Source: a virus
Lineage: Duplodnaviria > Caudoviricetes
IMG/VR virus record: IMGVR_UViG_3300037504_000611
Span: 1-53,700 of that record
DNA length: 53,700 nucleotides
Direction: 5' to 3' (one strand)
In this document: positions 4,564 to 32,631 of the stretch, piece after piece
Position numbering within the stretch: position 1 is the first letter of the stretch
Layout of the letters: the number at the start of each line of letters is the position of its first letter
Translations under genes and position numbers: made by a program
The notes under the pieces: model-generated
Databases searched by the model: none
The model's input: the letters and a program-made list of their open reading frames with translations, nothing else
What the model was told of the DNA's origin: nothing

Positions 4564-4602
4564 GCGCGTCATCTCTCTCCGGAGGGGCGGCGCGCTTTTT
4601 TT
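4564..4602 (+). terminator. Intrinsic terminator/attenuator in the head-operon leader
   Basis: GCGCGTC...GGCGCGC stem followed by T7, 6 nt before the protease ATG. Confidence 0.6.
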
Positions 4603-4608
4603 ATCTCT

Positions 4609-6150
4609 ATGCCATACACAACGATACAACGGAATGATATGCATTGTGTGGTCAAGGTTGGGCAGGAGTCGGGCCGCGTGTTCGGTTGCCACCGCTCTCC
4701 ACAGGCTGCATATGCGCAGATTGCTGCGATTGAGGCCAGCGAACAGAAGGACGTCGATTCTGGCGAGCTTGATAGAGTGTTTGCCGCGTATCACGACACG
4801 GTAAACATGAGCGCTTCTGAACTGGAGGCGTGGGGCGATACTGAGGCATCACAACTCGCATCCCAGGACCGGTCTCCCATCCGGCGCAACCTGCGCCTGT
4901 TGCGCACCCCGAAGAGCGAATGGACGCAGCGCGATATTGACGACGCGAACAAAACCATATCGTTCGTGGCGCGTATGAGCGCAGCCGAGCAGGGAGAGCC
5001 GGTCATTACGCAGGGAACGCGAGAGTATAGTAAACGCGACATTTCCCTCCTCAATTGGGCATACGACCCGAAAAAAACAAAATCGTTCACCGTCAACAAG
5101 CAGCGTGACGGGCGTTATCGGTGGGCGGCTGTGACCAGCACCGCCTATCTGGATAGAGACAACGAAATTGTCAGTCGGGAGGCGTTGCGCGGAGTGGTTG
5201 AGCGAGGCGACCGCACAGGCGAGCGAGGTGTCTTGCGCTGGTGGCACGAGCCGGGCATCGACCTCGGCACGATAGATTTCCAGGCTCTCCACGATAACGA
5301 CCGCCTCCTGGTTGAGAGCGGCACATTTGCCAGTCCGGTTGTAGGAGAGGCCGTGGCAGCACACCAGGATGATTTAGGTTTGTCTATCGGGTTCTGGCCT
5401 GGCGCAGGGCAACCCGACACCAGCGGAGTGTTTACCGATATTCGAAAATTCGAAACCAGCCTGCTCCCAAAACAGCAGGCCAGCAACAGGTTTACCAACA
5501 TCACTATCCAGAGAGAGGAGAAAGGTATGCGGGCAGAGAAGATCAATGCTCTTCGTGAGCTATTGAGCGATGATGATACATTGCAGTCATTGCTGGCCAG
5601 TGCAGACAATACCGCCAGCGCTGCCAGTAGTAGCGGGCTGCACTACAAAAACGCCGACACGATTGTAACGCCGGACGGCCACGAGTGGCAATATAGCGAT
5701 GGCTCGTTCGTGGCGGTGCCGCCTCCTGCCGAGCCCGAGCCGGAGCCGGAGCCAACGGTAAAAATGACGTTGCCTGTTAGTCGTGATGAGTTGGCGGAAC
5801 TGATACGGTCCGCCGTTATGGCAATGATGGACAGCTATACCGACCGAATGGCTGACAAAATGCGAGAGGGGATGGAAGGCTATCGCATGAAGGCCGCTGA
5901 TGTGCTGCAATCTGAACTCGCCACGCTCAAAGAGCAGCGGGCCCAGGCTGAACAAACCATTGCTGGCCTCGATGCACGCCTGAAAGAGTTGGAAGGCGAG
6001 CAACCGCGCGCTGCCACGAGCAACGGGTATCGCCCTACGCAGGATGACAGCACCGTTGTGGGCAAGGCGCAGCAGGGCGCGCCGCAGGAAGACACACTTG
6101 AGCACACTGTGAAAGATATGATGGCCACCCTTCACGGGTTTCAGGGTTGA
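4609..6150 (+). CDS. Prohead protease/scaffold fusion with an N-terminal DUF3140-like domain
   Basis: Protease-like core (STAYLDRDNEIV, WWHE, GLSIGF, FETSLLP), coiled-coil C-terminus, directly upstream of the MCP; VNMSASELEAW...SLLNWAYDPKK block resembles DUF3140. Confidence 0.75.
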   Translation: MPYTTIQRNDMHCVVKVGQESGRVFGCHRSPQAAYAQIAAIEASEQKDVDSGELDRVFAAYHDTVNMSASELEAWGDTEASQLASQDRSPIRRNLRLLRTPKSEWTQRDIDDANKTISFVARMSAAEQGEPVITQGTREYSKRDISLLNWAYDPKKTKSFTVNKQRDGRYRWAAVTSTAYLDRDNEIVSREALRGVVERGDRTGERGVLRWWHEPGIDLGTIDFQALHDNDRLLVESGTFASPVVGEAVAAHQDDLGLSIGFWPGAGQPDTSGVFTDIRKFETSLLPKQQASNRFTNITIQREEKGMRAEKINALRELLSDDDTLQSLLASADNTASAASSSGLHYKNADTIVTPDGHEWQYSDGSFVAVPPPAEPEPEPEPTVKMTLPVSRDELAELIRSAVMAMMDSYTDRMADKMREGMEGYRMKAADVLQSELATLKEQRAQAEQTIAGLDARLKELEGEQPRAATSNGYRPTQDDSTVVGKAQQGAPQEDTLEHTVKDMMATLHGFQG

Positions 6151-6165
6151 GGAGAGGAAAACACA

Positions 6166-7614
6166 ATGACTGTAGCAATTGATTATCAGCAACTCGCCAC
6201 GGCCCTGTTGCAACAGCAGGGTGGAGCGCAATACAAAGCGGCTGCGACCCCCCCGACCGGCGTATACGCGCACGGCCCAGGGGGGCTGTTTAGCTACCCC
6301 GGCGTTTCTCGCCCATTGTTTTCGGCTATGCCGCTCCCGCGAATGGGGCTGCAATCCATGTTGCCAGTGCGCCCCAGTCGAGACACAAATCCGCTCTATG
6401 GCATACTGACAGGCCAGACCGCAACAACGGGCGATGAGCCCGACAGTGTGTGCGACGATCCGCCGACGTCTGGCCTCCTGAAACTCTGTTTGCAACAGTT
6501 GCCATTCGGGCGCCAGACGCGCCAGACGCGCTCATACGACATTATGACCGCCGGAGAGATGACGAACCGTGGAGAGTTTTCTGATTACATTATCTACGGC
6601 AATCCCGCAGGCATGGAAACCACAGGCAATGTCCCCTCTATCCCCGGCGCGGATTTCGGACGGGCAGCGCAGTCGGATTTTATAACGGCAATGACCGAGC
6701 TGGCCGTGGCGTGGATGCGCGATTTTGCCCGAGAGATATATACCGGTAATCCAGGCGATAACACGGGAGGCCGGGAATATTTCAACGGCCTGGACAGGCT
6801 CATTAACAATTCTCGCATCGATGCGGTCACTGAAACCGCGTGCTCTGCTGCAAATAGCCTGATATGGCCGTTCAATAGCGCTGATGTGGCAGAAAACAGC
6901 GACCTGATTGTCAGGACCATCACGAGCATGTGGCGTGCGCTGAATTACCAGGCCAGCAGGAATGGGCTGTTGCCCGTCCGGTGGGCCATCACAATGCCGT
7001 TTGGGCTGTTCTATGCACTGACTGACATCTGGCCATGCTCGTTCATGACATTTCGTTGTTTAGCCAATACAACGAACACGAACGCGAGTGTTGATGTGGA
7101 CCCGATGGAGGCGGAGCAGATGCGCAGCAATATGCGCGGTGACCTCTACAATCGCAACAATCAGTATCTGCTGATTGACGGTCAGCAGGTGCCGGTCATT
7201 ATTGACGATGCATTGGAGCCATCGGATGGCACAAATGTGTCTGACATATATTTTGTGCCTATGACCGTTATGAATAGCGTTCCCGTCACCTATATGGAGT
7301 ATTTTGATTTCAACTCGCCGGGGGGCGCTCGTGATATGGCAAATAGCATGACTGCCGCGCGCTCGTTTTACACAACGGACAACGGACGGTTTCTGTTCGG
7401 GAACAAACCACCGTCCAATTTCTGTGTGCAAACCGTTGCCGGAGCACGGCCACGCCTCGTGCTGCTCACCCCGCAGATTGCGGGGCGATTGACCGACGTC
7501 GGCTGGTCAGAGCTCATTACGCCGGCGCCCTGGGACCCGTCCGCGCCATCGTTTGTGAACGGCGGTCAAACGGGCTACAACTGGCCATCTGATTTCTACG
7601 GCCCTAGCAGTTAG
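6166..7614 (+). CDS. Major capsid protein
   Basis: 482 aa after protease/scaffold, strong SD, HK97-like pattern (EIYTGNP...EYFNGLDRLI; SDIYFVP). Confidence 0.8.
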   Translation: MTVAIDYQQLATALLQQQGGAQYKAAATPPTGVYAHGPGGLFSYPGVSRPLFSAMPLPRMGLQSMLPVRPSRDTNPLYGILTGQTATTGDEPDSVCDDPPTSGLLKLCLQQLPFGRQTRQTRSYDIMTAGEMTNRGEFSDYIIYGNPAGMETTGNVPSIPGADFGRAAQSDFITAMTELAVAWMRDFAREIYTGNPGDNTGGREYFNGLDRLINNSRIDAVTETACSAANSLIWPFNSADVAENSDLIVRTITSMWRALNYQASRNGLLPVRWAITMPFGLFYALTDIWPCSFMTFRCLANTTNTNASVDVDPMEAEQMRSNMRGDLYNRNNQYLLIDGQQVPVIIDDALEPSDGTNVSDIYFVPMTVMNSVPVTYMEYFDFNSPGGARDMANSMTAARSFYTTDNGRFLFGNKPPSNFCVQTVAGARPRLVLLTPQIAGRLTDVGWSELITPAPWDPSAPSFVNGGQTGYNWPSDFYGPSS

Positions 7615-7622
7615 GAGCCTGG

Positions 7623-8273
7623 ATGTACACCGTTCTGGTGACGACCTACAACCGCAAAAACATGCTGCTGGAGTGCCTCGCACGCCTCCAGCAGCTATCG
7701 CCTGCCCCTACTGCTGTGGTCGTGGCCGACGACGGCAGCGACGACGGGACTCCCGCCGCTGTAGCGGAACGGTTCCCGAGCGCAGACGTGACAGCAACCA
7801 ACCGGCGCGGGCTAGGAGCCAATACCAACACCGGGCTACACGCTGCATTCGGCAGTGCTGATATTGTTCTGCAATTGCAGGATGATATATTTTTGCGCAC
7901 CCCATTAGACCTGACGCCGCACATTGCCGCTCTGCAATCAGAGGAGTATGCCGATGTGGCCTGGATACGACTGGCAAATGTGCATAGTCACGGCCTCAAT
8001 GCTGCTATGCGGCGCGATTACTGGATTATCGATTGGAACAGTCCTGGTGTCTATATTGCCAGCGACCAGGTGCATATAAAGCACAGGCGGTTCCACGATG
8101 TGTATGGATACTATCCCGAGGGATTGCGCATCGGCGATACCGAAAACACATGGTGCGGAGATGTAAAAGCCCGTGGGCAGCAGCTAGGAGCTCCCCGCGT
8201 GGCTGTGCCCGTCTATCTGAACGGACAGCAATGGACGCACGAGGGCGCCTCGTGGCAGTCGCAGGGGTTGTGA
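7623..8273 (+). CDS. Glycosyltransferase family 2
   Basis: LVTTYNR, ADDGSDD, LQLQDD motifs. Confidence 0.9.
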   Translation: MYTVLVTTYNRKNMLLECLARLQQLSPAPTAVVVADDGSDDGTPAAVAERFPSADVTATNRRGLGANTNTGLHAAFGSADIVLQLQDDIFLRTPLDLTPHIAALQSEEYADVAWIRLANVHSHGLNAAMRRDYWIIDWNSPGVYIASDQVHIKHRRFHDVYGYYPEGLRIGDTENTWCGDVKARGQQLGAPRVAVPVYLNGQQWTHEGASWQSQGL

Positions 8274-8274
8274 T

Positions 8275-10926
8275 ATGCGTGTCTACCTCCCGCCATTGGC
8301 AGATATCAATCACGGAGTGGGGCAGGTTCTGGCGGCTCAGCATAGGCACCTCCCCGCGTCTGGAGTAGAGATAGCGGTCAGTCCTGACGATGCCGATATA
8401 GTGGCAGCGCACATCATCCCCGATACGGACCGCGTGCCCGATGTGTTGCATTTGCACGGCCTGCACTACGATAGCGCGGCTCCCGACGATCGCGACGTGA
8501 ACCGCCGTATTGTGCCGCATATCAGAAGTGCTCGTGTTGTGACTATGCCGTCTGAGTGGGCCGCGTTGCCCCTCCGGCGCGATATGCGTATAATTCCCCA
8601 GGTTATCCCTAACGGCATCGATGTGGATAGATGGCAACCAGGCGACGCACGACCGTACGCGCTGTGGAATAAAAACCGCATGGACGCAACCTGTAATCCC
8701 GCAATGGCTCTCGAACTGGCACGACGCGGCATTCCGGTGGTGAGCACCTATGCGCCCGCTGTACAGCGCCCCGACACCCTGACTGTGACGGGGAAAATGC
8801 CACACGAGCAGATGCGAACGTATATCCAGAACGCGGGCGTGTACCTCGCCACGACACGCGAGGTACACAGCATTGGAGTTCTGGAGGCGTTAGCGGCGGG
8901 CGTCCCGGTCCTTGGTTGGAATATGGGCGGCACGGCAGAGACGGTGCTGCACAAGGTGACGGGATGGTTGGCAGAGGAGGGCGACATTGAGAGCCTGATA
9001 GAGGGCTATCACTGGCTGATGCGCAACCGACACCTCATTTCTGGCGAGTGCCGCATCCTCGCACAATCGTATGATTGGGGGGCGATTATGCCGGAGTATG
9101 CGCGTGTGTATCACGATGCATTGACCGGCAAACAACAAGACACGAACAGGGTTGCAGTGGTCATTCCCTGCTATAACTATGCTCACTATCTTGCACAGGC
9201 GATAGAGAGCGTCTTGCCGCAATTAGAGGAGGGCGACACCTGCATAGTCGTTGATGATGGCAGCAGCGATAATACGAGCGATGTGGCCGAGCGATATCCT
9301 GTTGAGTTTATCCGGCAGCAAAATCAGGGCGTGAGCGCGGCCAGGAACGCGGGGGTTGCCGCTGTGTCACAACCATATATTATCTGTCTCGATGCCGACG
9401 ACCAACTGGTGCCGGGGGCTATCGACACATTGCGCGGAGCTATTCAGACTCGGCGCGACATCGGCATTGTCTATGGCTCGCTACGCACAATGGACGCACA
9501 GGGCAATGATACCACAGGCGGATGGGCGCGCCACTGGCCACCGCAATTTGATTGGCAGAACCACCTAGAGCACGGCAATCATATCCCGTGTGCGGCAATG
9601 TTCCGCCGGGAGATGTGGCGCCGCGCTGGCGGCTATCACGTTTTTGGCGGGTGCGAGGATTACGAATTCTGGTCACGCGGTCTGTCGATTGGTTTTACCG
9701 CCCTCAGAGTCACAGACCAGCCTACATTTTGTTACCGCCAGCACCCTGAGGGCAGGAGCAATCACCTGGAATGTCCTCCGTTGGCCAGCAGGCACCCGTG
9801 GGCTATAGACAGACACTACCCAATGGGCGCTCCTGCTGCACACGGGCCGATTGTGCGCTCCTATCGCAGGCCAGTTGTCAGTGTCATTGTGCCCGTAGGA
9901 CCTGGACATGAGCGCTATGTGAGCACGGCAATAGAGAGCCTGTTGTCGCAAACGTTCCGTGATTGGGAATGCGTTGTCGTTGACGATACACACGACGGCA
10001 TCCCACGCCTCAATCTGGAGGCATATCCGTTTGCGCAGCCTGTTCGTACGTCGTGCGGAGCGGGCGCAGGCGCGGCGCGCAATGCCGGACTGGATGTTGC
10101 CAGCGCTCCGTTGTGTCTGTTTCTGGACGCCGATGACTATCTATTGCCTGTCGCAATTGAACAAATGATCGATGCGTACCAGACAGCGGACAACGTGTCC
10201 TACATCTATACCGACTGGTTTGTATGGAGCGACGGCAAACCAGAGCGGCGCCATTGCGCGGCGTATCGCCAGAATGCATGGCTCACAAATGGATTACACA
10301 GTGTAACCGTCCTGATGGACACAGAGCACGCTCGTGCGGTTCGTTTCAACGAGGATATGCCCTCCTGGGAGGATTGGGATTTTTTCGCACGCGCTGCTAT
10401 AGCCGGGTATTGTGGGCAACGTCTGGCGCTGCCACTGTTAGGCTATCGGGCCGATACGGGCCAGCGCCGCCGCTACGCGATGCAAAACAGCACAGAATTG
10501 CGCAACGAGATAACCGCCCGCTATGGCCCGTATGCAAGAGGAGAAAAAACAATTATGGGATGCTGTGGAGGAAAAAAGACCTCTCCGCCGATGGTGGACA
10601 GCACACCGATACTCGGCGCTGCCGCCGCCACAGACGGCAACGTGCGTATGGAGTATCTGGGTCAGCAGTCCGGGGCAATAACCTATCGAGGCGCGCAGGG
10701 ACGCGCCTATCGGGGAGGCAACAACCCGCATCGGAAATACGCGAATGTTCACCCTGACGATGTGGAGCGTCTGGCCAACACCGGCAAATGGCGAGTCGTT
10801 GAGGCACCTGCTCCGATTGCGCGCACGGCAGAGATTGCACCGCCGCCGGAAACAGCCACACCAGAGGAGCCATCTGATGATGAGCAACAAACAGCGCCAA
10901 AGCGCAAGCGCCGCTCCCGCAGTTGA
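8275..10926 (+). CDS. Multidomain glycosyltransferase GT4-GT2-GT2 with a C-terminal extension
   Basis: GT4: VIPNGID, EVHSIGVLEALAAGVPV; first GT2: VVIPCYN, VVDDGSSD, CLDADD, CEDYEFW; second GT2: VIVPVGPGH, FLDADD, WEDWDF. Confidence 0.9.
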   Translation: MRVYLPPLADINHGVGQVLAAQHRHLPASGVEIAVSPDDADIVAAHIIPDTDRVPDVLHLHGLHYDSAAPDDRDVNRRIVPHIRSARVVTMPSEWAALPLRRDMRIIPQVIPNGIDVDRWQPGDARPYALWNKNRMDATCNPAMALELARRGIPVVSTYAPAVQRPDTLTVTGKMPHEQMRTYIQNAGVYLATTREVHSIGVLEALAAGVPVLGWNMGGTAETVLHKVTGWLAEEGDIESLIEGYHWLMRNRHLISGECRILAQSYDWGAIMPEYARVYHDALTGKQQDTNRVAVVIPCYNYAHYLAQAIESVLPQLEEGDTCIVVDDGSSDNTSDVAERYPVEFIRQQNQGVSAARNAGVAAVSQPYIICLDADDQLVPGAIDTLRGAIQTRRDIGIVYGSLRTMDAQGNDTTGGWARHWPPQFDWQNHLEHGNHIPCAAMFRREMWRRAGGYHVFGGCEDYEFWSRGLSIGFTALRVTDQPTFCYRQHPEGRSNHLECPPLASRHPWAIDRHYPMGAPAAHGPIVRSYRRPVVSVIVPVGPGHERYVSTAIESLLSQTFRDWECVVVDDTHDGIPRLNLEAYPFAQPVRTSCGAGAGAARNAGLDVASAPLCLFLDADDYLLPVAIEQMIDAYQTADNVSYIYTDWFVWSDGKPERRHCAAYRQNAWLTNGLHSVTVLMDTEHARAVRFNEDMPSWEDWDFFARAAIAGYCGQRLALPLLGYRADTGQRRRYAMQNSTELRNEITARYGPYARGEKTIMGCCGGKKTSPPMVDSTPILGAAAATDGNVRMEYLGQQSGAITYRGAQGRAYRGGNNPHRKYANVHPDDVERLANTGKWRVVEAPAPIARTAEIAPPPETATPEEPSDDEQQTAPKRKRRSRS
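10555..10926 (+). CDS. Putative nested in-frame gene (123 aa, MGCCGGKK...KRKRRSRS)
   Basis: GAGGAG at 10538-10543 and A-rich spacer before an in-frame ATG, right after the last GT2 domain. Confidence 0.5.
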   Translation: MGCCGGKKTSPPMVDSTPILGAAAATDGNVRMEYLGQQSGAITYRGAQGRAYRGGNNPHRKYANVHPDDVERLANTGKWRVVEAPAPIARTAEIAPPPETATPEEPSDDEQQTAPKRKRRSRS

Positions 10927-11194
10927 CATAGCGGCCATATTGGCAGTCTATCGTGCTGCGCATATGATTGCGAGAGAAGACGGGCCGGGCGCCTGTTTTG
11001 AGCGACTACGCGCTGCCGCGTTTCGCTGGCCGATACTCGCGGACGGTCTGCATTGCCCGCTCTGTGTGTCGTTCTGGCTGGCGTTGTTGTTGCCGCACGC
11101 TCCCCGATGGCTGCTGCGATGGCTGGGCGTTGCGGGAGCCGTGCTCGTTATTCATCAGGCATTGGAGGGCTGGAATGAATTTACTACCGATTGA
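10877..11194 (+). CDS. DUF1360-like small membrane protein
   Basis: YRAAHMIAREDGP...LHCPLCVSFW plus hydrophobic helices; SD GAGGAG 7 nt before ATG 10877. Confidence 0.7.
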   Translation: MMSNKQRQSASAAPAVDIAAILAVYRAAHMIAREDGPGACFERLRAAAFRWPILADGLHCPLCVSFWLALLLPHAPRWLLRWLGVAGAVLVIHQALEGWNEFTTD

Positions 11195-12410
11195 GACATT
11201 TCGGGAGCACATTAGCTACCATCCATTCCATTTTTGGCAACTGGCCAACAGCGATATACCTGTTCAGTCGAGTTGTAATACGCTGGTGTACGAACACGCA
11301 TGGCAGGGAACAGACGCGGCGGGGCGCGCCACCGTGCGGCGGGCGATAGAACAGGCTGAAGAGCGGTTGCGCACATATTTACTGTATAGTGTAGCTCCCC
11401 GCTATGCCAGTATGACGCTCCAATACCCTGATTACTATCAGCCCGCACTGTATCGCAGCAGGCCAGCGAACAGCAGAGGGCAATGGTTGAGCGTCGAGTT
11501 GCCCGAGGGGTATGTACAGGCGTTAGGCACAGAGAGGCTCAGCCTGATAGACAGTCCAGCGGTTTTGCTCTCTGACAGCGATAGCGACGGGTTGAATGAC
11601 ACATTCACGCTGACTGTCAGCACCACTGTCACAGATGCCGACCAGTTAACGGTGTTTTTCTCCGAGCCGGATCGGCTCGACAACGACCTGGCGCGGTGGG
11701 AGATACGACCGGTGGCTGTTGCACTGGATGCGGAAACCGAAACCGCCATCATCACGGGGAGGCTATGGCAAATTGTGCGACCGGTGCTATACCAGGGCGT
11801 TGTGCTGCGCACGATAGACCCGGCAGACAGCGCCAACCTGGCCGCCACACTGGATGTCTATCAGCGCACAACCGACAGCAGCCAGCAGGCGACACTGATA
11901 TGGGAGACGCTGCCCTGCCCCTCCTGGTGTGATACTCGCACGGGGAGCACAGACCCCGCTGCCATTGCCACCGCTACAGCCCGCGTGGGAATACGGGATG
12001 CCAGGAACGGCATCCTCAGCCCGGCAGAGGCAGTCTATAACAGCGACAGCGGTACATGGACCAGCCTATCGGGTTGCTGGTGGGGCGATAGCCGATTGCC
12101 GGACCGGGTGAAAATCAATTATCTGGCTGGCTACCCGCTGGAAAACCGTCGCATAGCCGCGTGGTTACGCCCTGTTGTGACGCGATTTGCCATAGCGGAG
12201 CTAGCGCAGCGCATTTGCACCTGCGACTATGCCAATCGAGAGCTCTGGCACTGGCAATTTGATCGGGCCAGCACCAGTGGAAACAACGATGAAACCTATC
12301 AGGTGAGTGAAGAGGATTTAACCAATCCGTTCGGAACGCGTCTGGGCCATATAGACGCGTGGCGTCGCGTGCGTGGCGAGCGGAGAATGCCCGCCATATT
12401 ACCGTATTAG
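11175..12410 (+). CDS. Head-to-tail adaptor-like protein
   Basis: RRAIEQAEERLRTYL helix and VKINYLAGY motif; lies between head and tail genes; start with SD GGAGG. Confidence 0.6.
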   Translation: MNLLPIETFREHISYHPFHFWQLANSDIPVQSSCNTLVYEHAWQGTDAAGRATVRRAIEQAEERLRTYLLYSVAPRYASMTLQYPDYYQPALYRSRPANSRGQWLSVELPEGYVQALGTERLSLIDSPAVLLSDSDSDGLNDTFTLTVSTTVTDADQLTVFFSEPDRLDNDLARWEIRPVAVALDAETETAIITGRLWQIVRPVLYQGVVLRTIDPADSANLAATLDVYQRTTDSSQQATLIWETLPCPSWCDTRTGSTDPAAIATATARVGIRDARNGILSPAEAVYNSDSGTWTSLSGCWWGDSRLPDRVKINYLAGYPLENRRIAAWLRPVVTRFAIAELAQRICTCDYANRELWHWQFDRASTSGNNDETYQVSEEDLTNPFGTRLGHIDAWRRVRGERRMPAILPY

Positions 12411-12425
12411 CAGCAGGAGAGTGTC

Positions 12426-13952
12426 ATGCCACAGGTTAAAAAAAGCAACATTATAACCCAACAACACAACCGAGTTTTCCGCCAGCCAGGTGGAGCGTTT
12501 CCCGGCAATCCGGTGGAGTATAGCGGAACTGATGGTCAATATATGTCGATTATGGGCGTGAGCAATCCCGTGTCGGGAGGCATAGACCCGATCCAGGTGG
12601 GGGACCCCTACCGCGCCAAACAATACGCAAGTGTAGCTCGGAGCGTCAGCCCTCCCGATTTTGCCACCGCCACATTGATGCTGTATGAGGACCAGGGTGG
12701 CGAACTGCCCTGGCAGATCATAGACGCGTCTTGCCCATTCACTCTCTATATTATTTCAACGACGTGCGGCAATCCGTCGGATTTCCTGGCGGGGTGGTCG
12801 AATTTTGTTGAGGTGTTTTCTCAATGCGAGGTCACGGATCGCTCTGGCGGGGACCGTGCGCCATTCGATAGCGATGAAGCGATCAGTGACGAGCTTTCCA
12901 TCACGATCCAGGCGCACTACGCGGTGGGTAAACTGGGGTTTGGTGAGCGCGCTGCGACGCAGGTGGAGCGAGAAGTTGTGGCGATTACCTATGGCGACAC
13001 CTTCCAGTGCGCCGATTGCGGCGTGCCGAACGATGGCACAAAATGGCTCTATGCTGCAACTAAATTTGACGCCGGTTCTGTCATTAGCGCCGAGGTAGTC
13101 TATTCAACTGACGCGGGGTTGACATGGTCTGACGCAACCGTCGTCGCTGATGAGAACCCGGTCGCTATTGGAATAGCCGGAAACAAACTGGTAGTTGTCA
13201 CCACGGCTTCGTTGTATTGGGCAGAGATTGACGAGGACACGGGTGTTCCCGGATCGTTTACGACCGTCACCCCAACGACCTGGGCAGCAAATGCGCCAGC
13301 AGACGCGTTTTTTGCCGGGCCGCGCGAGGTGTATGTGTGCGGTGCGAACGGGTATGTGTGGCTGTTTACAGACGTTACGAGTGCGCCGGTGGTGCTCACC
13401 GATGGCAGCACGACCGCAGAGGATTTGAAGCGCATTAAAGCGGTTGATGCTGTGGTCGTGGCGAGTGGGGCGAACGGCACGGTAATCGTCAGCACGAATC
13501 GCGGCCAGACGTTTGCGCAAACCAGCGCCGATCCGTCTGCCGATACGCAGCAAGCGCTGGGAGTTGTGAGCGACAAAATTATGTGGACAGGCACTGACGG
13601 GGGAGAACTCTACTACACGCGAAACGGCGGCAAAAGTTGGACTGAAAAGGTGATCGACGGATCGGGCACTGGGGAGGTCTACGACATCCTGATTGCTACA
13701 GCCGAGGTGGTATACGTCAGTCATAGCGACGCCACGCCACGGGCGCGGTTGTTTTCGAGTTGGAACGGTGGTGAAACGTTCACTCGCATGGCGCCCCGCA
13801 TTCTGAATTTTCCTGATTTTGATAGAGCAACGCGCCTGGCCGCTCCTCTGACAGGTACGCCAGGCATCGCTGCGAATAACATCGCCATCGCCGGGCTGGC
13901 CGACAACGCCACGGACGGTATTATTTTGCAGGGTATTGCAGGGGTGAAATAA
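12426..13952 (+). CDS. Probable major tail tube protein with a C-terminal Asp-box (BNR) beta-propeller
   Basis: Directly upstream of chaperone and TMP; repeats YSTDAGLTW, VSTNRGQTF, YTRNGGKSW, SSWNGGETF. Confidence 0.6.
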   Translation: MPQVKKSNIITQQHNRVFRQPGGAFPGNPVEYSGTDGQYMSIMGVSNPVSGGIDPIQVGDPYRAKQYASVARSVSPPDFATATLMLYEDQGGELPWQIIDASCPFTLYIISTTCGNPSDFLAGWSNFVEVFSQCEVTDRSGGDRAPFDSDEAISDELSITIQAHYAVGKLGFGERAATQVEREVVAITYGDTFQCADCGVPNDGTKWLYAATKFDAGSVISAEVVYSTDAGLTWSDATVVADENPVAIGIAGNKLVVVTTASLYWAEIDEDTGVPGSFTTVTPTTWAANAPADAFFAGPREVYVCGANGYVWLFTDVTSAPVVLTDGSTTAEDLKRIKAVDAVVVASGANGTVIVSTNRGQTFAQTSADPSADTQQALGVVSDKIMWTGTDGGELYYTRNGGKSWTEKVIDGSGTGEVYDILIATAEVVYVSHSDATPRARLFSSWNGGETFTRMAPRILNFPDFDRATRLAAPLTGTPGIAANNIAIAGLADNATDGIILQGIAGVK

Positions 13953-14440
13953 TGCCACAAAAAACGAGGGTGTTCCATTTTAGCACGGGTGTTGTGGGGA
14001 AGCTGAAACCAGTTTCCCCGTTCATTCGGCAACAGGTAGACCGGAGCCTCCCCATGCCGGACCCTCCTATGGCAGAGGTCAGGTATGCTGAAAACGATAT
14101 CCGACAGGAGCCGAACCCTGCTGATCCGGCATACATAGCAGCAATCGAACAACGCAATGTGGAGCTGGGGCAAATATTGCTCGATGTGATTTTTGAACAC
14201 GGCGTTGATGTGCCGATTGATTACGATAAGCTAGGCGCTGCCCGCGGCATCATCGAGGGCGCCGGGGGCACCTGGCCAACAAAGCAGAGCGATAAACTGT
14301 GCTACATCAAATTTTGCTGCATCGGGGTGGATGGTGAGGACGCGCTGCTCCTAGATGCCATACGCAGGGGCTATGAGGTTACAGAGGAGGACGTGGCCGC
14401 TGCGCTGCGCACGTTTCAGCGTGACGTATCGAGGACGTGA
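13952..14440 (+). CDS. Tail assembly chaperone (G-like)
   Basis: Lies between tube and TMP; overlaps a downstream open frame. Confidence 0.7.
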   Translation: MPQKTRVFHFSTGVVGKLKPVSPFIRQQVDRSLPMPDPPMAEVRYAENDIRQEPNPADPAYIAAIEQRNVELGQILLDVIFEHGVDVPIDYDKLGAARGIIEGAGGTWPTKQSDKLCYIKFCCIGVDGEDALLLDAIRRGYEVTEEDVAAALRTFQRDVSRT

Positions 14441-14693
14441 CATTTTTTCCTATCGGACCCCGCGCGGCCAGATAGAATACTCATTGGAATACGCACTTCT
14501 GGAGACGATGCGCTGGAAACGGATGAGCGAGCCGGAGTTTTTAGCACTCGACATCGAGCAGCAGGCACGCGCCATTGCGCACTATCGCGTGCATCACCAG
14601 CTACAGGCCATCATTCAGCAGGAACAGGAGCGCCAGGCGCGTCAGGCGAGAAACCAGGCGAAACAGCAATCGCGTGGCAGGAGAAAGCGATAG
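14415..14693 (+). CDS. Tail assembly chaperone frameshift extension (T-like)
   Basis: +1 frame open to the base before the TMP ATG, with no good start of its own; ACG TTT CAG at 14411-14419. Confidence 0.55.
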   Translation, partial: FSVTYRGRDIFSYRTPRGQIEYSLEYALLETMRWKRMSEPEFLALDIEQQARAIAHYRVHHQLQAIIQQEQERQARQARNQAKQQSRGRRKR

Positions 14694-29269: not shown

Positions 29270-29641
29270 TTACATCTCCACATTCTTCAAAAATGCCCGT
29301 ATATCCGCCAGTGTGTCCATATCCAGACTGAATCCACCCTCCCAGCCAGTGACTACGCGCTGCAACAGGTCCAGCGCATAATTCAGGTTGTCGTTGCTGC
29401 TGTAATGGCCCTCCAGTGCCTTTTGCACATCCCCGCGCAGGTGCGGGTGGGCAGCGTCCCAGCCGGATATGTCCTGCACGCTGGCAAGCTCCGCCAGCAG
29501 GTCACGCAGCGCGGCCCGCTCCGCACGGGCCTTGTGCAGCGCATCGGTGAGCACTGCCATCGTGGCACGTTCTCGTTGTTCGATGGCTGTGTTGTATTCT
29601 CGCACAATCTGCTCTGACCGTTTGTCTATGTGTGGTTGCAT
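29270..29641 (-). CDS. Hypothetical protein
   Basis: 123 aa, SD AAGGAGG. Confidence 0.6.
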   Translation of the reverse strand: MQPHIDKRSEQIVREYNTAIEQRERATMAVLTDALHKARAERAALRDLLAELASVQDISGWDAAHPHLRGDVQKALEGHYSSNDNLNYALDLLQRVVTGWEGGFSLDMDTLADIRAFLKNVEM

Positions 29642-30417
29642 GTTTCCTCCTTATGTCTCTCTAATGCTGTCCTGACCGCTCCTGCTATTGCCTTGCCCAT
29701 CGGCAGCGGAACCCCGTTCCCGATGGCCTTGAGCTTGCCCGCCACGGTGAACGGGGCACCGTCTAAGAAATCCCCCGGCAAGCCTTGCAAGCGGCAATTC
29801 TCTTGCAGAGTTCTGCCATTGCGTGCGTTCGGAGGCAACTCCGAACGCACCTTGTCTTTGACAACCTTCTTGGGTTTCCCGTTGCCATTCAGGCGAATGG
29901 GCGTGCCGTTCCAGTTGCCGCCGCCAGATGCCACAACCGCATAGGCCCACTCGCCAGGCACCGCGCCCCACAGGTCGAGATGGGGGAGCAGGCTTATGGC
30001 CTTTTCGCCGCGCACGCCAAATACGAAACGGCGCTCGCGGTTTTGTTCACCGCCGCACTGGCGATTGTTGATGACCACAACCGACTGTGCATAGCCCGGT
30101 GTGACTGGACATGGCGCAGCGGGCACATTCTCCATCAAAAACGCACGCGGTTGCGCTTCGAGGACAACCCGCGCAAACTCCGGTATCAGATCGGGCGCAA
30201 GTTCATAGCCGTTGTGGCGCACCATATGCGCCAATCGGCTAAAACGCTGGCACGGTGGCCCGCCGATAACCAGGTCAAACTTGCCTGCTGGCGGGCGGAA
30301 CGTGTGAATGTCACCGCCCCACAGGCTGTCCGGCCCGCGCACGACACAAAAGCCGTGCGCTTCAAAGGCCATATCAATCAAACCAATGCCAGGAAACAAC
30401 GACAATACCAGCATCAC
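29626..30417 (-). CDS. DNA cytosine-5 methyltransferase
   Basis: LFPGIG, GGPPCQ, MENV, QNRERRF, RLQG, IGNGVP motifs. Confidence 0.92.
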   Translation of the reverse strand: MMLVLSLFPGIGLIDMAFEAHGFCVVRGPDSLWGGDIHTFRPPAGKFDLVIGGPPCQRFSRLAHMVRHNGYELAPDLIPEFARVVLEAQPRAFLMENVPAAPCPVTPGYAQSVVVINNRQCGGEQNRERRFVFGVRGEKAISLLPHLDLWGAVPGEWAYAVVASGGGNWNGTPIRLNGNGKPKKVVKDKVRSELPPNARNGRTLQENCRLQGLPGDFLDGAPFTVAGKLKAIGNGVPLPMGKAIAGAVRTALERHKEETCNHT

Positions 30418-31265
30418 GCCACCCCCTCTCGTTCTAGCAGATCAAACAGCGTGCGCTCCTGCTGCGTGCTCCGATTGCACACCCATACCACCTCCACGCG
30501 TTGGTTTGCGGTGCGTGTTTTACTGTTCTCCGCGCTCATCACGGCCTGTATTTCTATCCGTCGTTGTGCCGACGCTGGTTCTGTCGTCTGCGGGTAGTTG
30601 TTCAGGATGTAGCTCCCCTGGCACGTATCCAGCGCGCTACACAGCGCGTGCCAGTCTTCCAGTGTATAGCCACTGTAATGGCCCTGGTTTGCGCCAGGGT
30701 AGGGCGGGTCGCAGTAGAACAGCGTGTCTGGACTATCCCAACGCTGGATACACCTGATGGCATCCTCGCACGACACATAGACACCGCTGAAACGCTCCAG
30801 GATGGTGGGAAGCCATTGCAGATACGTTGCCCATGCCTGTGCGCTGTTCCGTGTCTTTACGTTTGTTCCCCACCCCTTCCCTATGCCGTTTGCAAACGAC
30901 TGGCGGGTTTGCACGACCACCGCCCAGGCGACGCGCAACGGCGTGTAGTCGTGCGGCGCTTGCAAGACGGCGTACGCCTTGCGATACTCCGACTGACTGT
31001 ATGGCGTGTATTGCAGCAGGTGTAGCAGGTCGTCCTTCTGCTCCTGGCACACGCGATAGAGCGTCACAATGCGCTCGTCCCTATCGTTGACGCATTCCCG
31101 ATAATCATCACGATTATCGGGGCGAGGCTTGCCCTTGGCGAACAGCACCGCCGCGTCGCCTGCGAACGGCTCTACATAGACAGTGTGCGGAATGGTACGG
31201 ATAATGTCCACAATGCGCGATGCAATGCGCTGCTTGCCGCCGTAGTAGCTGATGATTGGTTTCAC
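30414..31265 (-). CDS. DNA adenine methyltransferase (D12/Dam class)
   Basis: YYGGK, VYVEPFAGDAA, FYCDPPY. Confidence 0.9.
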   Translation of the reverse strand: MKPIISYYGGKQRIASRIVDIIRTIPHTVYVEPFAGDAAVLFAKGKPRPDNRDDYRECVNDRDERIVTLYRVCQEQKDDLLHLLQYTPYSQSEYRKAYAVLQAPHDYTPLRVAWAVVVQTRQSFANGIGKGWGTNVKTRNSAQAWATYLQWLPTILERFSGVYVSCEDAIRCIQRWDSPDTLFYCDPPYPGANQGHYSGYTLEDWHALCSALDTCQGSYILNNYPQTTEPASAQRRIEIQAVMSAENSKTRTANQRVEVVWVCNRSTQQERTLFDLLEREGVA

Positions 31266-31354
31266 GCCTCCTTCTCTCCGAACATCGCGTCAACGGTAAA
31301 GCCGGACGGCGTGTGTATGGCGCGTTTGGCGGCAAGAAAATCGGTGTAGTTCAT
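31262..31354 (-). pseudogene. 30-aa stub resembling the N-terminus of phage SNF2-type helicases
   Basis: MNYTDFLAAKRAIHTPSGF; coupled to both neighbours, SD GAGG. Confidence 0.35.
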
Positions 31355-32631
31355 CGTGTATCCTCTAGTGAGAGCAGGAGCGGCTGCTCGATGCCCTCGG
31401 CCAATATCTGGGGCAGCAACTCGGCCCCGTTCGGCTCGGTGCCGTCCCATTTGCCAGGCCAGGTATTGAGGGCGTGCAGTTGCACAATGCGCCCATACTC
31501 GCGCCCGTTGATAAGCTCCATTGCTGGCATATTGTTCTGGTGTGCCCCCTGAAAGACCTCGCGCTGAATTTGCAAAATCTCGGCCAGTCCCCACTGCCGG
31601 GCCTCCATCGTGAGCGGCCCTTTGCGCCCCGGGTTTTTAGAGAGCGTGCCGTCCTTCTTGCGCTCGGTGCCGTCTTTTTGCAGCCGGTTGCCGTGCTTGC
31701 GCAGTTCGAGGCTGATCGGGCGCAGGCGTTTCAGGGGAGCCAGGTGCCCCCAGCGCTCCGGGTATTCGCTCAATAGGTGGTCAAGGGCTACGTCTGTCGT
31801 CGCTAGTTCGCAGCCCGTGCAGCCGGTGCGGGCGTTGAGTTCTTTCTGGTCTCCCTCTTCACTCACGCCGTATACATCTGCAATCATCTGCGTATCGAAG
31901 CCGTGTGACGGCGCAAAGAACATCAGCCAGTCCCAGACGTGGCACAGCCGCCAGTGCAGCAACGGAGCCAGGGTGTCAGCCAGGGCTGTAGGCGTAGTCT
32001 CCTGATACCATCCCTGCCCACATTCGCCACCGTCTTTGCCGCAGGCCAGGGCAATGCGCTGGTCACGCGCTGCACTTTCGCCCATCCGCAACCCGGTCAG
32101 CATCAGGATTTTCTCATTGCCATACCCCTGGTAACGCCAGCGTTTGTGGCGCTTATCCCAAACCATCTGCCCCAGGCCCAGCACGGCACCGTGCTGGGCA
32201 AGTGCGTTATTCATTGGTTCGATTTTGATTTGCCGAGTACACCAGCGGAAGGTCATATTGTTGGGCGGTGGCACGCCTCGGCCTAACATATAGACATAGA
32301 AACGCTCATCAAGCGGCGGCAATACCACCTGTGCGTTGACCTCGCGCTGCCTCATCGTGCGCAGCAGGTGCAAGGCACTGGCTTGCAGCGGCGGCAACTC
32401 GCGCCGGGTATCGGCATAGAGCACAGTCAGTGTCTCAGGACGCGGCACCTGCCCTGACTCAATGAGCCAGAGCACCAACGTTGTTGTGGCGGTGCTGTCC
32501 TTGCCCCCACTGAACGCTATGGCCCAATGTCGATAGTTTGCAGCATAGGCGTACAGGCTATCAATGGTCATCTGGATGGCATCGTTCATCGTCATGCGTT
32601 GCTCTTCCCAGAGCGAAAGTTGTCGTTTCAT
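31351..32631 (-). CDS. PAPS-reductase family protein (DndC-like)
   Basis: AFSGGKDS, YADT, RWCTRQIKIEP, GLRMGESAARD, APLLHW...VWDWL, RTGCTGC. Confidence 0.85.
   Translation of the reverse strand: MKRQLSLWEEQRMTMNDAIQMTIDSLYAYAANYRHWAIAFSGGKDSTATTTLVLWLIESGQVPRPETLTVLYADTRRELPPLQASALHLLRTMRQREVNAQVVLPPLDERFYVYMLGRGVPPPNNMTFRWCTRQIKIEPMNNALAQHGAVLGLGQMVWDKRHKRWRYQGYGNEKILMLTGLRMGESAARDQRIALACGKDGGECGQGWYQETTPTALADTLAPLLHWRLCHVWDWLMFFAPSHGFDTQMIADVYGVSEEGDQKELNARTGCTGCELATTDVALDHLLSEYPERWGHLAPLKRLRPISLELRKHGNRLQKDGTERKKDGTLSKNPGRKGPLTMEARQWGLAEILQIQREVFQGAHQNNMPAMELINGREYGRIVQLHALNTWPGKWDGTEPNGAELLPQILAEGIEQPLLLSLEDTR

What the first reader, a model, noticed from the sequence alone, without database searches (positions are those of the whole stretch)
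10538..10926. Nested in-frame gene: the triple glycosyltransferase is fused to a small head-type protein
Seen: right after the last GT2 domain there is a strong SD (GAGGAG), an A-rich spacer and an in-frame ATG giving MGCCGGKK..., 123 aa, with a small beta domain, a Pro/Glu linker and a basic KRKRRSRS end. This resembles small proteins found after MCP genes. Inference: one locus makes both the free small protein and a GT fusion that could dock the enzyme on the assembling capsid. I know of no description of this targeting arrangement.
Basis: partly seen in the sequence, partly recalled or inferred. Interest (0 to 1): 0.7.

Follow-up and report, generated by a model that had tools for sequence, protein, structure and literature searches.

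The report
Nested capsid-binding gene inside phage glycosyltransferase
The last 123 codons of a large phage sugar-transferase gene carry their own conserved ribosome-binding site and start codon, so the phage probably makes a small free protein and an enzyme-linked copy of it, and that shared module is predicted to bind the likely capsid protein.

Summary
GAGGAG (10538-10543), an 11-nt A-rich spacer and an in-frame ATG (10555) open a 123-codon reading inside the 883-codon GT1-GT2-GT2 gene (8275-10926).

In the window alone this site is not exceptional: it ranks third of 58 in-frame start codons by SD strength. Comparison with relatives makes it significant.
- 39 of 40 distinct fused relatives keep an ATG 1-3 codons before the CC motif.
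- SD pairing averages -8.7 kcal/mol, against -3.3 for 1793 control codons.
- Gly codons there are skewed to GGA/GGG (34/42 vs 869/2184), and local RNA structure is weaker.
- Three further relatives use GTG or TTG with a strong SD.
- Where separate free copies exist (L013), the fused copy has lost both the Met and the CC.

The module has a confident small beta core (pLDDT 96) and belongs to no curated family. It is predicted to bind the upstream 482-aa protein (ipSAE 0.62, best control 0.00), whose weak fold matches are mostly phage capsids.

Best reading: a nested in-frame gene that gives a free capsid-binding protein and a copy tethered to the glycosyltransferase. This matches herpesvirus UL26/UL26.5, with a glycosyltransferase in place of a protease. 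No protein-level evidence exists. Most "stand-alone homologs" in databases look like gene calls on short contigs. This scan has not noted it on other DNA.

The parts
8275..10926 (+). Full ORF, 883 aa: GT1-type domain, two GT2 domains, then the C-terminal module. The source database calls it from a later start, as 841 aa.
8275..10554 (+). Glycosyltransferase part (aa 1-760). GT1/GT4-like matches at aa 51-252. Glycos_transf_2 best stretch aa 295-447. Glyco_tranf_2_2 best stretch aa 536-634.
   Evidence: Glycos_transf_2 3.8e-49, Glycos_transf_1 6.8e-15, Glyco_tranf_2_2 3.1e-11.
10538..10543 (+). Internal Shine-Dalgarno GAGGAG, coded by the residues R-G-E.
   Evidence: Pairing energy -9.1 kcal/mol. 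An equivalent SD is present in 39 of 39 fused relatives that have the ATG.
10544..10554 (+). A-rich 11-nt spacer (AAAAAACAATT).
   Evidence: The 60-nt windows around the junction ATGs fold more weakly than controls.
10555..10557 (+). In-frame internal ATG (Met761 of the long protein, Met1 of the nested product).
   Evidence: ATG sits 1-3 codons before the first Cys in 39 of 40 distinct fused ORFs.
10555..10926 (+). Nested in-frame ORF of 123 aa plus the TGA stop.
10561..10566 (+). Cys-Cys codons of the MGCCGG motif. C763, C764 and G765 are invariant among the 19 aligned fused proteins.
10642..10800 (+). Conserved beta core (aa 30-82 of the nested product): VRMEY..G...GA.T..G..GR.YRGGNN..RY.NVHP.DV..L..TG.WRVV. 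It holds the predicted contact residues 36-46, 48-51, 56-60 and 76.
10801..10899 (+). Pro/Glu/Ala/Thr-rich linker, modelled with lower confidence than the core.
   Evidence: 10-residue block mean pLDDT 78-63 after aa 80.
10900..10923 (+). Basic tail KRKRRSRS. Relatives carry basic tails or small HhH-, PSBD- or HTH-type modules at this position.
6166..7614 (+). 482-aa protein, the major-capsid-protein candidate and the predicted binding partner of the module.
   Evidence: ipSAE 0.62, best control 0.00; the low-confidence model's best fold matches are phage capsids, best E 8.8e-3; conserved position after the protease/scaffold gene.
7623..8273 (+). Separate GT2 gene (216 aa) between the capsid candidate and the triple GT.
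   Evidence: Glycos_transf_2 4.4e-15.
10877..11194 (+). Next gene, in another frame: 105 aa, hydrophobic, with a CxxC. It overlaps the tail of the nested ORF, and its own SD GAGGAG is coded by P-E-E-P.
   Evidence: Similar genes follow in relatives. No Pfam match.

Best explanation
The 3' end of the triple glycosyltransferase gene is a nested in-frame gene.

Ribosomes that start at 8275 read through and make a protein of about 97 kDa: GT1-GT2-GT2 plus the C-terminal module. Other ribosomes bind the internal GAGGAG and start at ATG 10555. They make a free 123-aa protein identical to that module. The free protein has an N-terminal GCCGG once the Met is removed, a small beta core, a flexible Pro/Glu linker and a basic tail.

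The beta core binds the major capsid protein encoded two genes upstream. Free copies therefore occupy sites on the capsid lattice, and the rarer enzyme-linked copies are carried to the same lattice. This places the glycosyltransferase domains next to their presumed substrate, the capsid surface.

Shown here:
- the continuous ORF;
- conservation of the internal SD and start codon, with codon-level bias;
- natural split forms of the locus;
- the confident fold of the core.

Predicted only: binding to the 482-aa protein.

Inferred:
- that the 482-aa protein is the capsid protein;
- that the glycosyltransferases glycosylate the virion;
- the relative amounts of the two products.

My odds by step: about 0.75 that the internal start is used, about 0.5 that the module binds the capsid protein, and about 0.4 that the purpose is to dock the enzyme for capsid glycosylation.
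For: 1. Fusion is the rule and not an assembly accident.
- 18 further proteins of 882-1006 aa share the GT1-GT2-GT2-module layout.
- 0 of 26 further loci show a stop between GT and module: 21 have both in one frame and 5 are cut by the contig end.
- A Logan contig of a tidal-flat run matches 9800-11300 with 0 differences, though it may come from the same sample.

2. The internal start is conserved.
- 39 of 40 distinct fused ORFs have ATG 1-3 codons before the first Cys. By my count's list they carry 34 different upstream 22-mers.
- Mean SD duplex energy is -8.66 kcal/mol, against -3.31 for 1793 other in-frame ATG/GTG/TTG codons of the same ORFs.
- 39 of 39 reach -5 or better, against 434 of 1793 controls (Mann-Whitney p 7e-23).
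- L026 and L038 use GTG and L040 uses TTG, each with a strong SD.

3. Selection acts on the bases, not the residues.
- The residues coding the SD vary (RGEK, KGKL, EGVE, GRID, AKES, LKEN, PEEV and others).
- Gly codons in the 7 codons before the Met are GGA/GGG in 34 of 42 cases, against 869 of 2184 elsewhere (Fisher p 9e-8).

4. The start site looks like a start site. The 60-nt windows around the junction ATGs fold more weakly than those around 559 control Met codons: mean -11.3 vs -16.0 kcal/mol, p 1.4e-8.

5. Natural experiments point the same way.
- L013=L020 has two free copies starting MGCGC and MGCRC, and its fused copy lacks both the Met and the CC.
- L004 has a fused copy plus a free copy.
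- L014 has the module as a separate gene in the +1 frame, with an SD and an ATG 4 nt after the GT's TGA.

6. The SD at 10555 (-9.1) equals that of the capsid-candidate gene (-9.3) and exceeds the GT's own start (-6.0).

7. Binding is predicted.
- The model supports binding; it does not show it. Score 0.62, best of 3 controls 0.00.
- The mark was reached by 58 of 80 solved complexes and 2 of 110 mismatched pairs. These counts hold only roughly because my own alignments were used.
- The runs agree in at least 59% of contacts, and the partner's pLDDT is at least 58.
- The contact residues on the module (36-46, 48-51, 56-60, 76) lie in its most conserved stretch.

8. Context fits a head operon. 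Protease/scaffold, capsid candidate, GT(s), triple GT with module, small membrane-like protein and BNR protein keep this order in relatives. The window has no Tet_JBP or thymidylate-synthase-like gene that could supply a hydroxymethyl base for DNA glycosylation.
Against: - No protein, N-terminal or ribosome-profiling data exist for this uncultivated phage, and no RNA run is listed.
- In the window alone two other in-frame start codons (9088, 9364) have equal or better SD scores.
- The relatives share ancestry, so the 39 ORFs are not 39 independent events.
- A conserved Gly-rich hinge could account for part of the purine richness, although the codon test argues against this.
- The capsid-protein identity of the partner is weak. 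It has no Pfam, PHROG or PDB sequence match. The model's mean pLDDT is 52.5, and no Foldseek match reaches E 0.001.
- By the complex-prediction tool's own description (its instructions, not a call output), 7 of 44 blindly chosen neighbouring gene pairs passed its binding test.
- The basic, HhH, PSBD or HTH tails would fit DNA binding as well as capsid binding.
- The many short 'stand-alone' homologs cannot be counted as support. 10 of 10 checked lie on contigs of 508-4054 bp. P0033 is 98% identical over its whole length to L084 and L085, where the frame is open upstream into the GT.
- Three distinct relatives have an in-frame TGA at the junction and no obvious start codon for the module. The model does not explain this.
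Confidence: 0.5

Rival explanations
1. The segment is simply the C-terminal domain of the enzyme and is made only as part of the long protein. The purine-rich stretch and the Met would then be a linker feature, for example a translational pause that lets the GT domains fold. They could also be a relic of an old gene fusion.
For: The ORF is continuous in nearly all relatives. Nothing shows the short product. SD-like sites of equal strength occur elsewhere in the window's ORF.
Against: A relic would not survive at about 40% protein identity with ATG in 39 of 40 ORFs, correct spacing, GGA/GGG codon bias and weakened local structure. The relatives without ATG use GTG or TTG, which are start codons and not just any codon. 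The one lineage with free copies has lost the Met and the CC in its fused copy.
Confidence: 0.15
2. Both forms are made, but the free copy serves the enzyme and not the capsid. It would bind the same module in the long protein, or the GT domains, as a stabilising or regulating subunit. This would resemble the short SpaO isoform of the Salmonella type III sorting platform.
For: The internal-start evidence is the same. The SpaO long/short pair is a known bacterial example of this kind (abstract of 10.1101/2025.05.15.654217 seen in the listing). Fused and free copies co-occur in L004 and L013.
Against: Self-association was not tested, because the single complex job went to the capsid candidate. 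The predicted contact with the 482-aa protein uses the module's most conserved residues. The variable basic and HhH tails are not explained.
Confidence: 0.15
3. The tail of the module binds DNA. It would tether the glycosyltransferase to phage DNA so that modified bases can be glycosylated.
For: C-terminal tails in the family are basic or carry E3_binding (7 of 81), HHH_5, HTH_17 or RNA_pol_A_CTD matches (1 each). The window has a C5 cytosine methylase at 29629-30417. Phage GTs that hypermodify DNA are known (abstracts of 10.1101/2023.12.21.572611 and PMC13326640, listing).
Against: No Tet_JBP and no thymidylate-synthase-like hydroxymethylase is found in the complete 53.7-kb genome. The genes keep a fixed place inside the head operon. 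The conserved core, not the tail, is what the family shares, and it is predicted to contact the capsid candidate.
Confidence: 0.07
4. Assembly or sequencing artefact: a stop codon between two genes was lost.
For: The window is a single metagenome assembly. The only run that spans the junction may be its own source.
Against: The same continuous frame is seen in 39 other distinct ORFs from many samples. A second assembler's contig agrees with 0 differences.
Confidence: 0.01

Closest known systems
Herpesvirus UL26 / UL26.5 (protease-scaffold nested genes); from recall also phage lambda C / Nu3
   Same: A long product carries an enzyme at its N-terminus. A shorter product from an in-frame internal start is identical to its C-terminal part. 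That shared part binds the major capsid protein, so the enzyme accumulates in the assembling capsid (PMC4498786, Introduction and Conclusions passages read).
   Different: The enzyme here is a three-domain glycosyltransferase and not a maturation protease. The shared part is a 55-residue beta domain with a disordered tail, not a coiled-coil scaffold. The window has a separate protease/scaffold-like gene at 4609-6150. UL26.5 has its own transcript, whereas an internal SD on the same mRNA is inferred here.
Mycobacteriophage virion glycosylation (Che8 and other cluster F1 phages)
   Same: Phage-encoded glycosyltransferases are linked to glycans on the major capsid protein, forming a glycan shield. 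I read this in the abstract and one passage of PMC11256854, which cites Freeman et al. 2023. That paper is not held.
   Different: According to the Maravista passage, the glycosyltransferase genes lie near the 3' end of that phage's genome. The passages I read mention no fused capsid-binding module or nested gene. Whether the present phage's virion is glycosylated is unknown.
SpaO long/short and other bacterial internal-initiation proteoforms
   Same: One gene gives a full-length protein and a C-terminal fragment from an internal start, and the two act in one assembly (abstracts of 10.1101/2025.05.15.654217 and PMC13515050 in the listing).
   Different: These come from a different protein family and a different machine. 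No homology to them is claimed.
DUF7302 (PF23976) / phrog_748 'head-tail connector protein' / small uncharacterised phage proteins in BFVD
   Same: The second half of the core and the linker (aa 62-110) align weakly with both profiles. Foldseek finds small phage proteins of 58-130 aa with the best E at 0.019.
   Different: The DUF7302 score of 22.7 bits is below the cut-off of 24.9. Only 4 of 81 family members match either profile. The N-terminal CCGG motif and the YRGGNN block are not part of those matches. I found no paper on DUF7302.

Membership tests
Nested in-frame gene with internal translation initiation | One continuous ORF holds both products. | tested here: met
   ORF 8275..10926 has no stop. 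The same holds in 39 other distinct ORFs.
Nested in-frame gene with internal translation initiation | The internal start codon with a ribosome-binding site is conserved beyond what the protein sequence requires. | tested here: met
   ATG in 39 of 40 ORFs. SD energy -8.66 vs -3.31. GGA/GGG in 34/42 vs 869/2184. Weaker local folding. GTG or TTG in three further loci.
Nested in-frame gene with internal translation initiation | The shorter product is detected as a protein, or as an initiation peak. | not testable with these tools
   The phage is uncultivated. Only DNA contig runs were found.
Enzyme/capsid-binding nested pair (UL26/UL26.5 type) | The shared C-terminal part binds the major capsid protein. 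| tested here: inconclusive
   Prediction only: ipSAE 0.62 vs best control 0.00. The partner's capsid identity is weak.
Enzyme/capsid-binding nested pair (UL26/UL26.5 type) | The enzyme is the capsid maturation protease and the shared part is the scaffold. | tested here: not met
   The N-terminal part consists of GT1 and GT2 domains. So it works like this pair but is not a member.
DUF7302 (PF23976) | The score reaches Pfam's gathering cut-off. | tested here: not met
   22.7 bits against 24.9. 4 of 81 relatives match at E <= 0.01.
Phage virion glycosylation system | Phage glycosyltransferase genes sit in or next to the capsid gene module. | tested here: met
   The GT2 gene (7623-8273) and the triple GT directly follow the capsid candidate. 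The order is kept in relatives.
Phage virion glycosylation system | A glycan is attached to virion proteins. | not testable with these tools
   This needs virions.
Selenoprotein (for the relatives with TGA at the Cys codon) | A SECIS hairpin follows the UGA. | tested here: not met
   No Rfam family matches in L012, L031 or L037. The three 70-nt folds differ, with z-scores of -1.96, +1.02 and -0.71.

The most novel reading that the evidence does not exclude
The free 123-aa protein is a capsid decoration protein that also serves as the glycan acceptor. The glycan would attach either at the Gly-flanked Cys pair exposed at its N-terminus (S-linked, as in the sublancin-type GT2 enzymes, which I recall) or on the Thr/Ser/Pro-rich tail. 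The enzyme-linked copy would then be a self-priming, lattice-docked glycosyltransferase. In some relatives the ratio of free GT to tethered GT would be set by leaky reading of a UGA that sits exactly on the second Cys codon. That would make this a new way for tailed phages to build a sugar coat, using a dedicated carrier protein.
Probability: 0.15. Interest if true: 0.85.

Novelty: new variant of a known kind. Interest (0 to 1): 0.62.

Why it matters
Capsid glycosylation by phage enzymes has been reported for some mycobacteriophages and is said to shield the capsid from antibodies. I know this only from one genome announcement (PMC11256854) that cites the original study, which I could not read. 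That text says nothing about how a soluble glycosyltransferase finds the capsid.

This locus offers a testable answer: the enzyme borrows the capsid-binding module of a small protein that is encoded inside its own gene. If true, three things follow.
- The herpesvirus-type 'enzyme rides in on a nested structural protein' design extends to a new enzyme class.
- A widespread but uncurated small phage protein family gets a defined role. One search found 247 representatives at E <= 0.001.
- A short capsid-docking tag becomes available that could be reused to display cargo on related capsids.

The case also warns annotators. The short proteins of this family in large catalogues are, where I could check them, calls at the internal start on contig fragments.

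Tried and rejected
- **GenBank phages.** A megablast of 4600-14500 and a tblastn of the 123-aa segment found no match.
- **Word-indexed protein search.** The segment alone, against proteins of 67-216 aa, gave none at E <= 0.001.
- **ESM Atlas.** The best scores were 0.82-0.83, to unnamed viral and bacterial clusters. I treat these as leads only.
- **PDB by sequence.** The family profile gave nothing below E 0.1, and the capsid-candidate profile gave nothing.
- **PDB by fold, for the module.** The best hit was E 0.32 (a GINS subunit). B. subtilis prophage protein YqbF (2hjq) came at E 3.6. I did not use either.
- **Other collection scans.** GTDB genome contigs with the RxYRGGNN pattern gave 19 pattern matches and none confirmed. 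The same pattern found only 2 loci in viral contigs.
- **Selenocysteine.** I considered it for the TGA that replaces the second Cys codon in L012, L031 and L037=L024, and rejected it for lack of a SECIS. Readthrough or reinitiation remains open.
- **Counting stand-alone homologs.** I rejected the 93 short proteins as evidence.
- **RNA evidence.** No RNA holder is listed. Runs X2 and X3 cover only parts of 9800-11300 and do not bridge the junction.
- **Supplements.** Supplementary files of papers were not consulted, so those of the virion-glycosylation literature might bear on GT targeting.
Full report
**What is in the sequence.**
The window is a complete 53.7-kb phage record with direct terminal repeats. 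Its DNA is held by a tidal-flat metagenome run.

ORF 8275..10926 codes for 883 aa. Pfam finds GT1-type matches at aa 51-252 and Glycos_transf_2 (3.8e-49) in two stretches, the best at aa 295-447. Glyco_tranf_2_2 has its best stretch at aa 536-634. Only a sub-threshold DUF7302 match (22.7 bits, cut-off 24.9) falls in the last 123 aa.

At the junction the DNA reads GAGGAG (10538-10543), AAAAAACAATT, then ATG (10555), all in frame. The reading gives MGCCGGKK...KRKRRSRS, 123 aa, ending at TGA 10924-10926.

In the window alone the site is good but not unique. Its SD pairing energy of -9.1 kcal/mol equals the upstream 482-aa gene (-9.3) and beats the GT gene's own start (-6.0). It is still third among 58 in-frame start codons of the ORF.

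**The fusion is conserved.**
A search with residues 700-883 found 18 other proteins of 882-1006 aa with the same domain set. All carry a C-terminal block of the form M-x(0-3)-CCGG ... VRMEY.G...GA.T..G..GR.YRGGNN..RYANVHP.DV..L..TG.W. In the alignment, C763, C764, G765, R791, G796, G800, Y812, R813, G814, D829 and W839 are invariant.

Viral contigs gave 80 loci, of which L002-L040 and L081 hold the multi-domain GT. Metagenome contigs gave 24 more loci with the module. Among the 26 loci L082-L107, none has a stop between GT and module. In 21 both lie in one frame, and in 5 the frame runs open to the contig's first bases.

**The internal start is conserved at the level of the bases.**
I used an iterated HMM of the module over all stored loci. 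Of 40 distinct long ORFs, 39 have ATG 1-3 codons before the first Cys. By my count of the list they carry 34 different upstream 22-mers.

| Measure | Junction sites | Controls | Test |
|---|---|---|---|
| Mean duplex energy of the 22 nt upstream with the anti-SD motif | -8.66 kcal/mol | -3.31 (1793 other in-frame ATG/GTG/TTG codons in the GT parts) | Mann-Whitney p 7e-23 |
| Sites reaching -5 kcal/mol or better | 39 of 39 | 434 of 1793 | - |
| Gly codons in the seven codons before the Met that are GGA or GGG | 34 of 42 | 869 of 2184 elsewhere | Fisher p 9e-8 |
| Mean fold energy of the 60-nt window around the ATG | -11.3 kcal/mol | -16.0 (559 control Met codons) | p 1.4e-8 |

The residues that encode the SD differ widely (RGEK, KGKL, EGVE, GRID, AKES, LKEN, PEEV and others). 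The Gly codon bias shows that selection acts on the bases and not the residues.

A first, simpler pass over the window plus L002-L040 and L081 (41 sources) found ATG with an SD in 31. One site, in L034, was mislocated there and corrected. Of the ten loci without an ATG:
- L026 and L038 use GTG, and L040 uses TTG, each with AAGGAGG, GGGAG or GAGGAGG at the right distance;
- L013=L020, L014, and L012, L031 and L024=L037 are the variant forms described next.

The sequences are related, so these are not independent events. Even so, at about 40% protein identity a functionless signal would not be kept together with its codon bias.

**Variant forms of the locus.**
- L013 (and the identical L020) has a fused copy that lacks both the Met and the Cys pair. 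Two separate small genes follow it, starting MGCGC and MGCRC (77 and 74 aa). Each starts at or next to the preceding stop.
- L004 has a normal fused copy plus a free 76-aa copy without the Cys pair.
- L014 has the module as its own gene in the +1 frame. It has an SD-like AGAGGAAAGG, and its ATG lies 4 nt after the GT's TGA.

So three lineages make the module as a free protein, and one of them has dropped the internal start from its fused copy. This is what the nested-gene reading predicts.

Three distinct relatives (L012, L031, L037=L024) instead have a single in-frame TGA exactly where the others have the second Cys codon. The conserved beta domain continues in frame behind it. I found no SECIS and no shared hairpin. 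How the module is made in these relatives is unexplained.

**A caveat on 'stand-alone homologs'.**
The exhaustive HMMER search found 247 representatives at E <= 0.001. Of the 148 new proteins listed, 93 are 230 aa or shorter, and many start M-x-CCGG. These cannot be taken at face value.
- P0033 (110 aa) is 98% identical over its whole length to L084 and L085, where the frame is open upstream into the GT.
- All 10 short proteins I looked up lie on contigs of 508-4054 bp.

They are most simply gene calls at the internal ATG on fragments of fused genes.

**What the module is.**
AlphaFold2 on 81 sequences gives a compact core, with strands at 30-34, 42-45, 51-54 and 62-65, a helix at 67-75 and a strand at 79-81. 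Mean pLDDT is 96-97 in the 10-residue blocks spanning aa 31-80. The N-terminal 29 residues and the tail score low.

No curated family covers it. DUF7302 and phrog_748 each match 4 of 81 members. No PDB structure matches below E 0.3. BFVD gives only small uncharacterised phage proteins, from E 0.019.

The tails vary: basic runs, E3_binding-like modules (7 of 81), and single HHH_5, HTH_17 and RNA_pol_A_CTD matches.

**Predicted partner.**
The 482-aa protein at 6166-7614 follows a DUF3140/protease/scaffold-like gene. It keeps this place in relatives. It has no Pfam, PHROG or PDB sequence match. Its model is poor, with mean pLDDT 52.5. Eight of the nine best Foldseek hits are phage capsid proteins, the best at E 8.8e-3 and none at or below 0.001. 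I call it the capsid candidate.

For the capsid candidate with the module, the model supports binding; it does not show it.
- The score is 0.62 and the best of 3 controls is 0.00.
- The mark was reached by 58 of 80 solved complexes and 2 of 110 mismatched pairs. These counts hold only roughly because my own alignments were used.
- The runs agree in at least 59% of contacts, and the partner's pLDDT is at least 58.
- The contacts on the module (36-46, 48-51, 56-60, 76) fall on its most conserved stretch.
- Those on the capsid candidate include the nearly invariant G194, G216 and R441.

**Mechanism.**
The best reading is a nested in-frame gene. The long product is the glycosyltransferase carrying the module. 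The short product is the free module, probably made in larger amounts because its SD is as strong as the capsid candidate's. Both bind the capsid lattice through the same core, so a minority of sites carry the enzyme.

That the enzyme glycosylates the virion is inferred from three points:
- its place in the head operon, together with a second GT2 gene and a Methyltransf_24 gene;
- the lack of any Tet_JBP or thymidylate-synthase-like gene for a DNA route;
- the mycobacteriophage precedent (PMC11256854, abstract and passage).

Rivals are listed with their odds: domain only, enzyme-regulating subunit, DNA tether, and artefact.

**Comparison and novelty.**
The design is that of herpesvirus UL26/UL26.5. 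There the protease and the scaffold share a 3' end in frame, the shared part binds the major capsid protein, and the enzyme therefore accumulates in the capsid (PMC4498786, passages). Lambda C/Nu3 is the phage example that I recall but did not check.

I found no paper on DUF7302. None of the papers listed in my searches on phage glycosyltransferases and capsids describes a glycosyltransferase with a nested capsid-binding gene. In those three searches I saw only listings and abstract openings, and no listed paper held the phrase 'internal start codon'.

I rate it a new variant of a known kind. It rests on strong comparative evidence for the nested start and on prediction-level evidence for the docking role. 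No look-alike on other DNA was on record.

Noticed in passing
L012:8356-8358, L031:8347-8349, L037:8329-8331 (L024 is the same sequence): A single in-frame TGA sits exactly where relatives have the second Cys codon of M-x-CCGG. The conserved beta domain continues in frame behind it, with no obvious SD and start codon. No SECIS match and no shared hairpin were found. Readthrough or reinitiation remains open.
   Followed up: partly
L013:5992-9041 (L020 is identical); L004:8688-8918; L014:8008-8415: These are natural split forms. L013 has a fused copy without the Met and CC, plus two free copies. L004 has a fused copy plus one free copy. L014 has the module as a separate gene in the +1 frame.
   Followed up: yes
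window 10877-11194 (+): A 105-aa hydrophobic protein with a CxxC overlaps the tail of the nested ORF in another frame. Its SD GAGGAG is coded by the P-E-E-P of the linker. Similar small genes follow the GT in many relatives. It has no Pfam match, and a membrane-like protein in a head operon is unexplained.
   Followed up: partly
proteins P0020-P0167: Short catalogue proteins of this family that start M-x-CCGG lie on contigs of 508-4054 bp in 10 of 10 checked cases. They probably are calls at the internal start of truncated fused genes. This is a trap when counting 'stand-alone' homologs.
   Followed up: partly
C-terminal tails of family members (alignment A2): The tails behind the conserved core are swapped among basic runs, E3_binding/PSBD-like modules (7 of 81), HHH_5, HTH_17 and RNA_pol_A_CTD (1 each). 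A short ...LDLPE... end motif also recurs in several members.
   Followed up: no
window 12426-13952 (+): A 508-aa protein with weak BNR/Sortilin-type propeller matches (all below the Pfam cut-offs) is conserved downstream of the GT locus in 28 sources, the window included.
   Followed up: no
window 29629-30417 (-), 30417-31265 (-), 50244-51467 (+), 31354-32631 (-): The phage carries three DNA methyltransferases (C5, Dam-like D12, N6_N4) and a PAPS-reductase-domain protein, but no Tet_JBP or thymidylate-synthase-like gene.
   Followed up: partly
window 9088 and 9364 (+): Two other in-frame start codons inside the GT ORF have SD scores of -9.3, as good as the junction site. Met272 (codon at 9088) is not among the conserved columns of alignment A1. 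The site at 9364 was not checked.
   Followed up: partly
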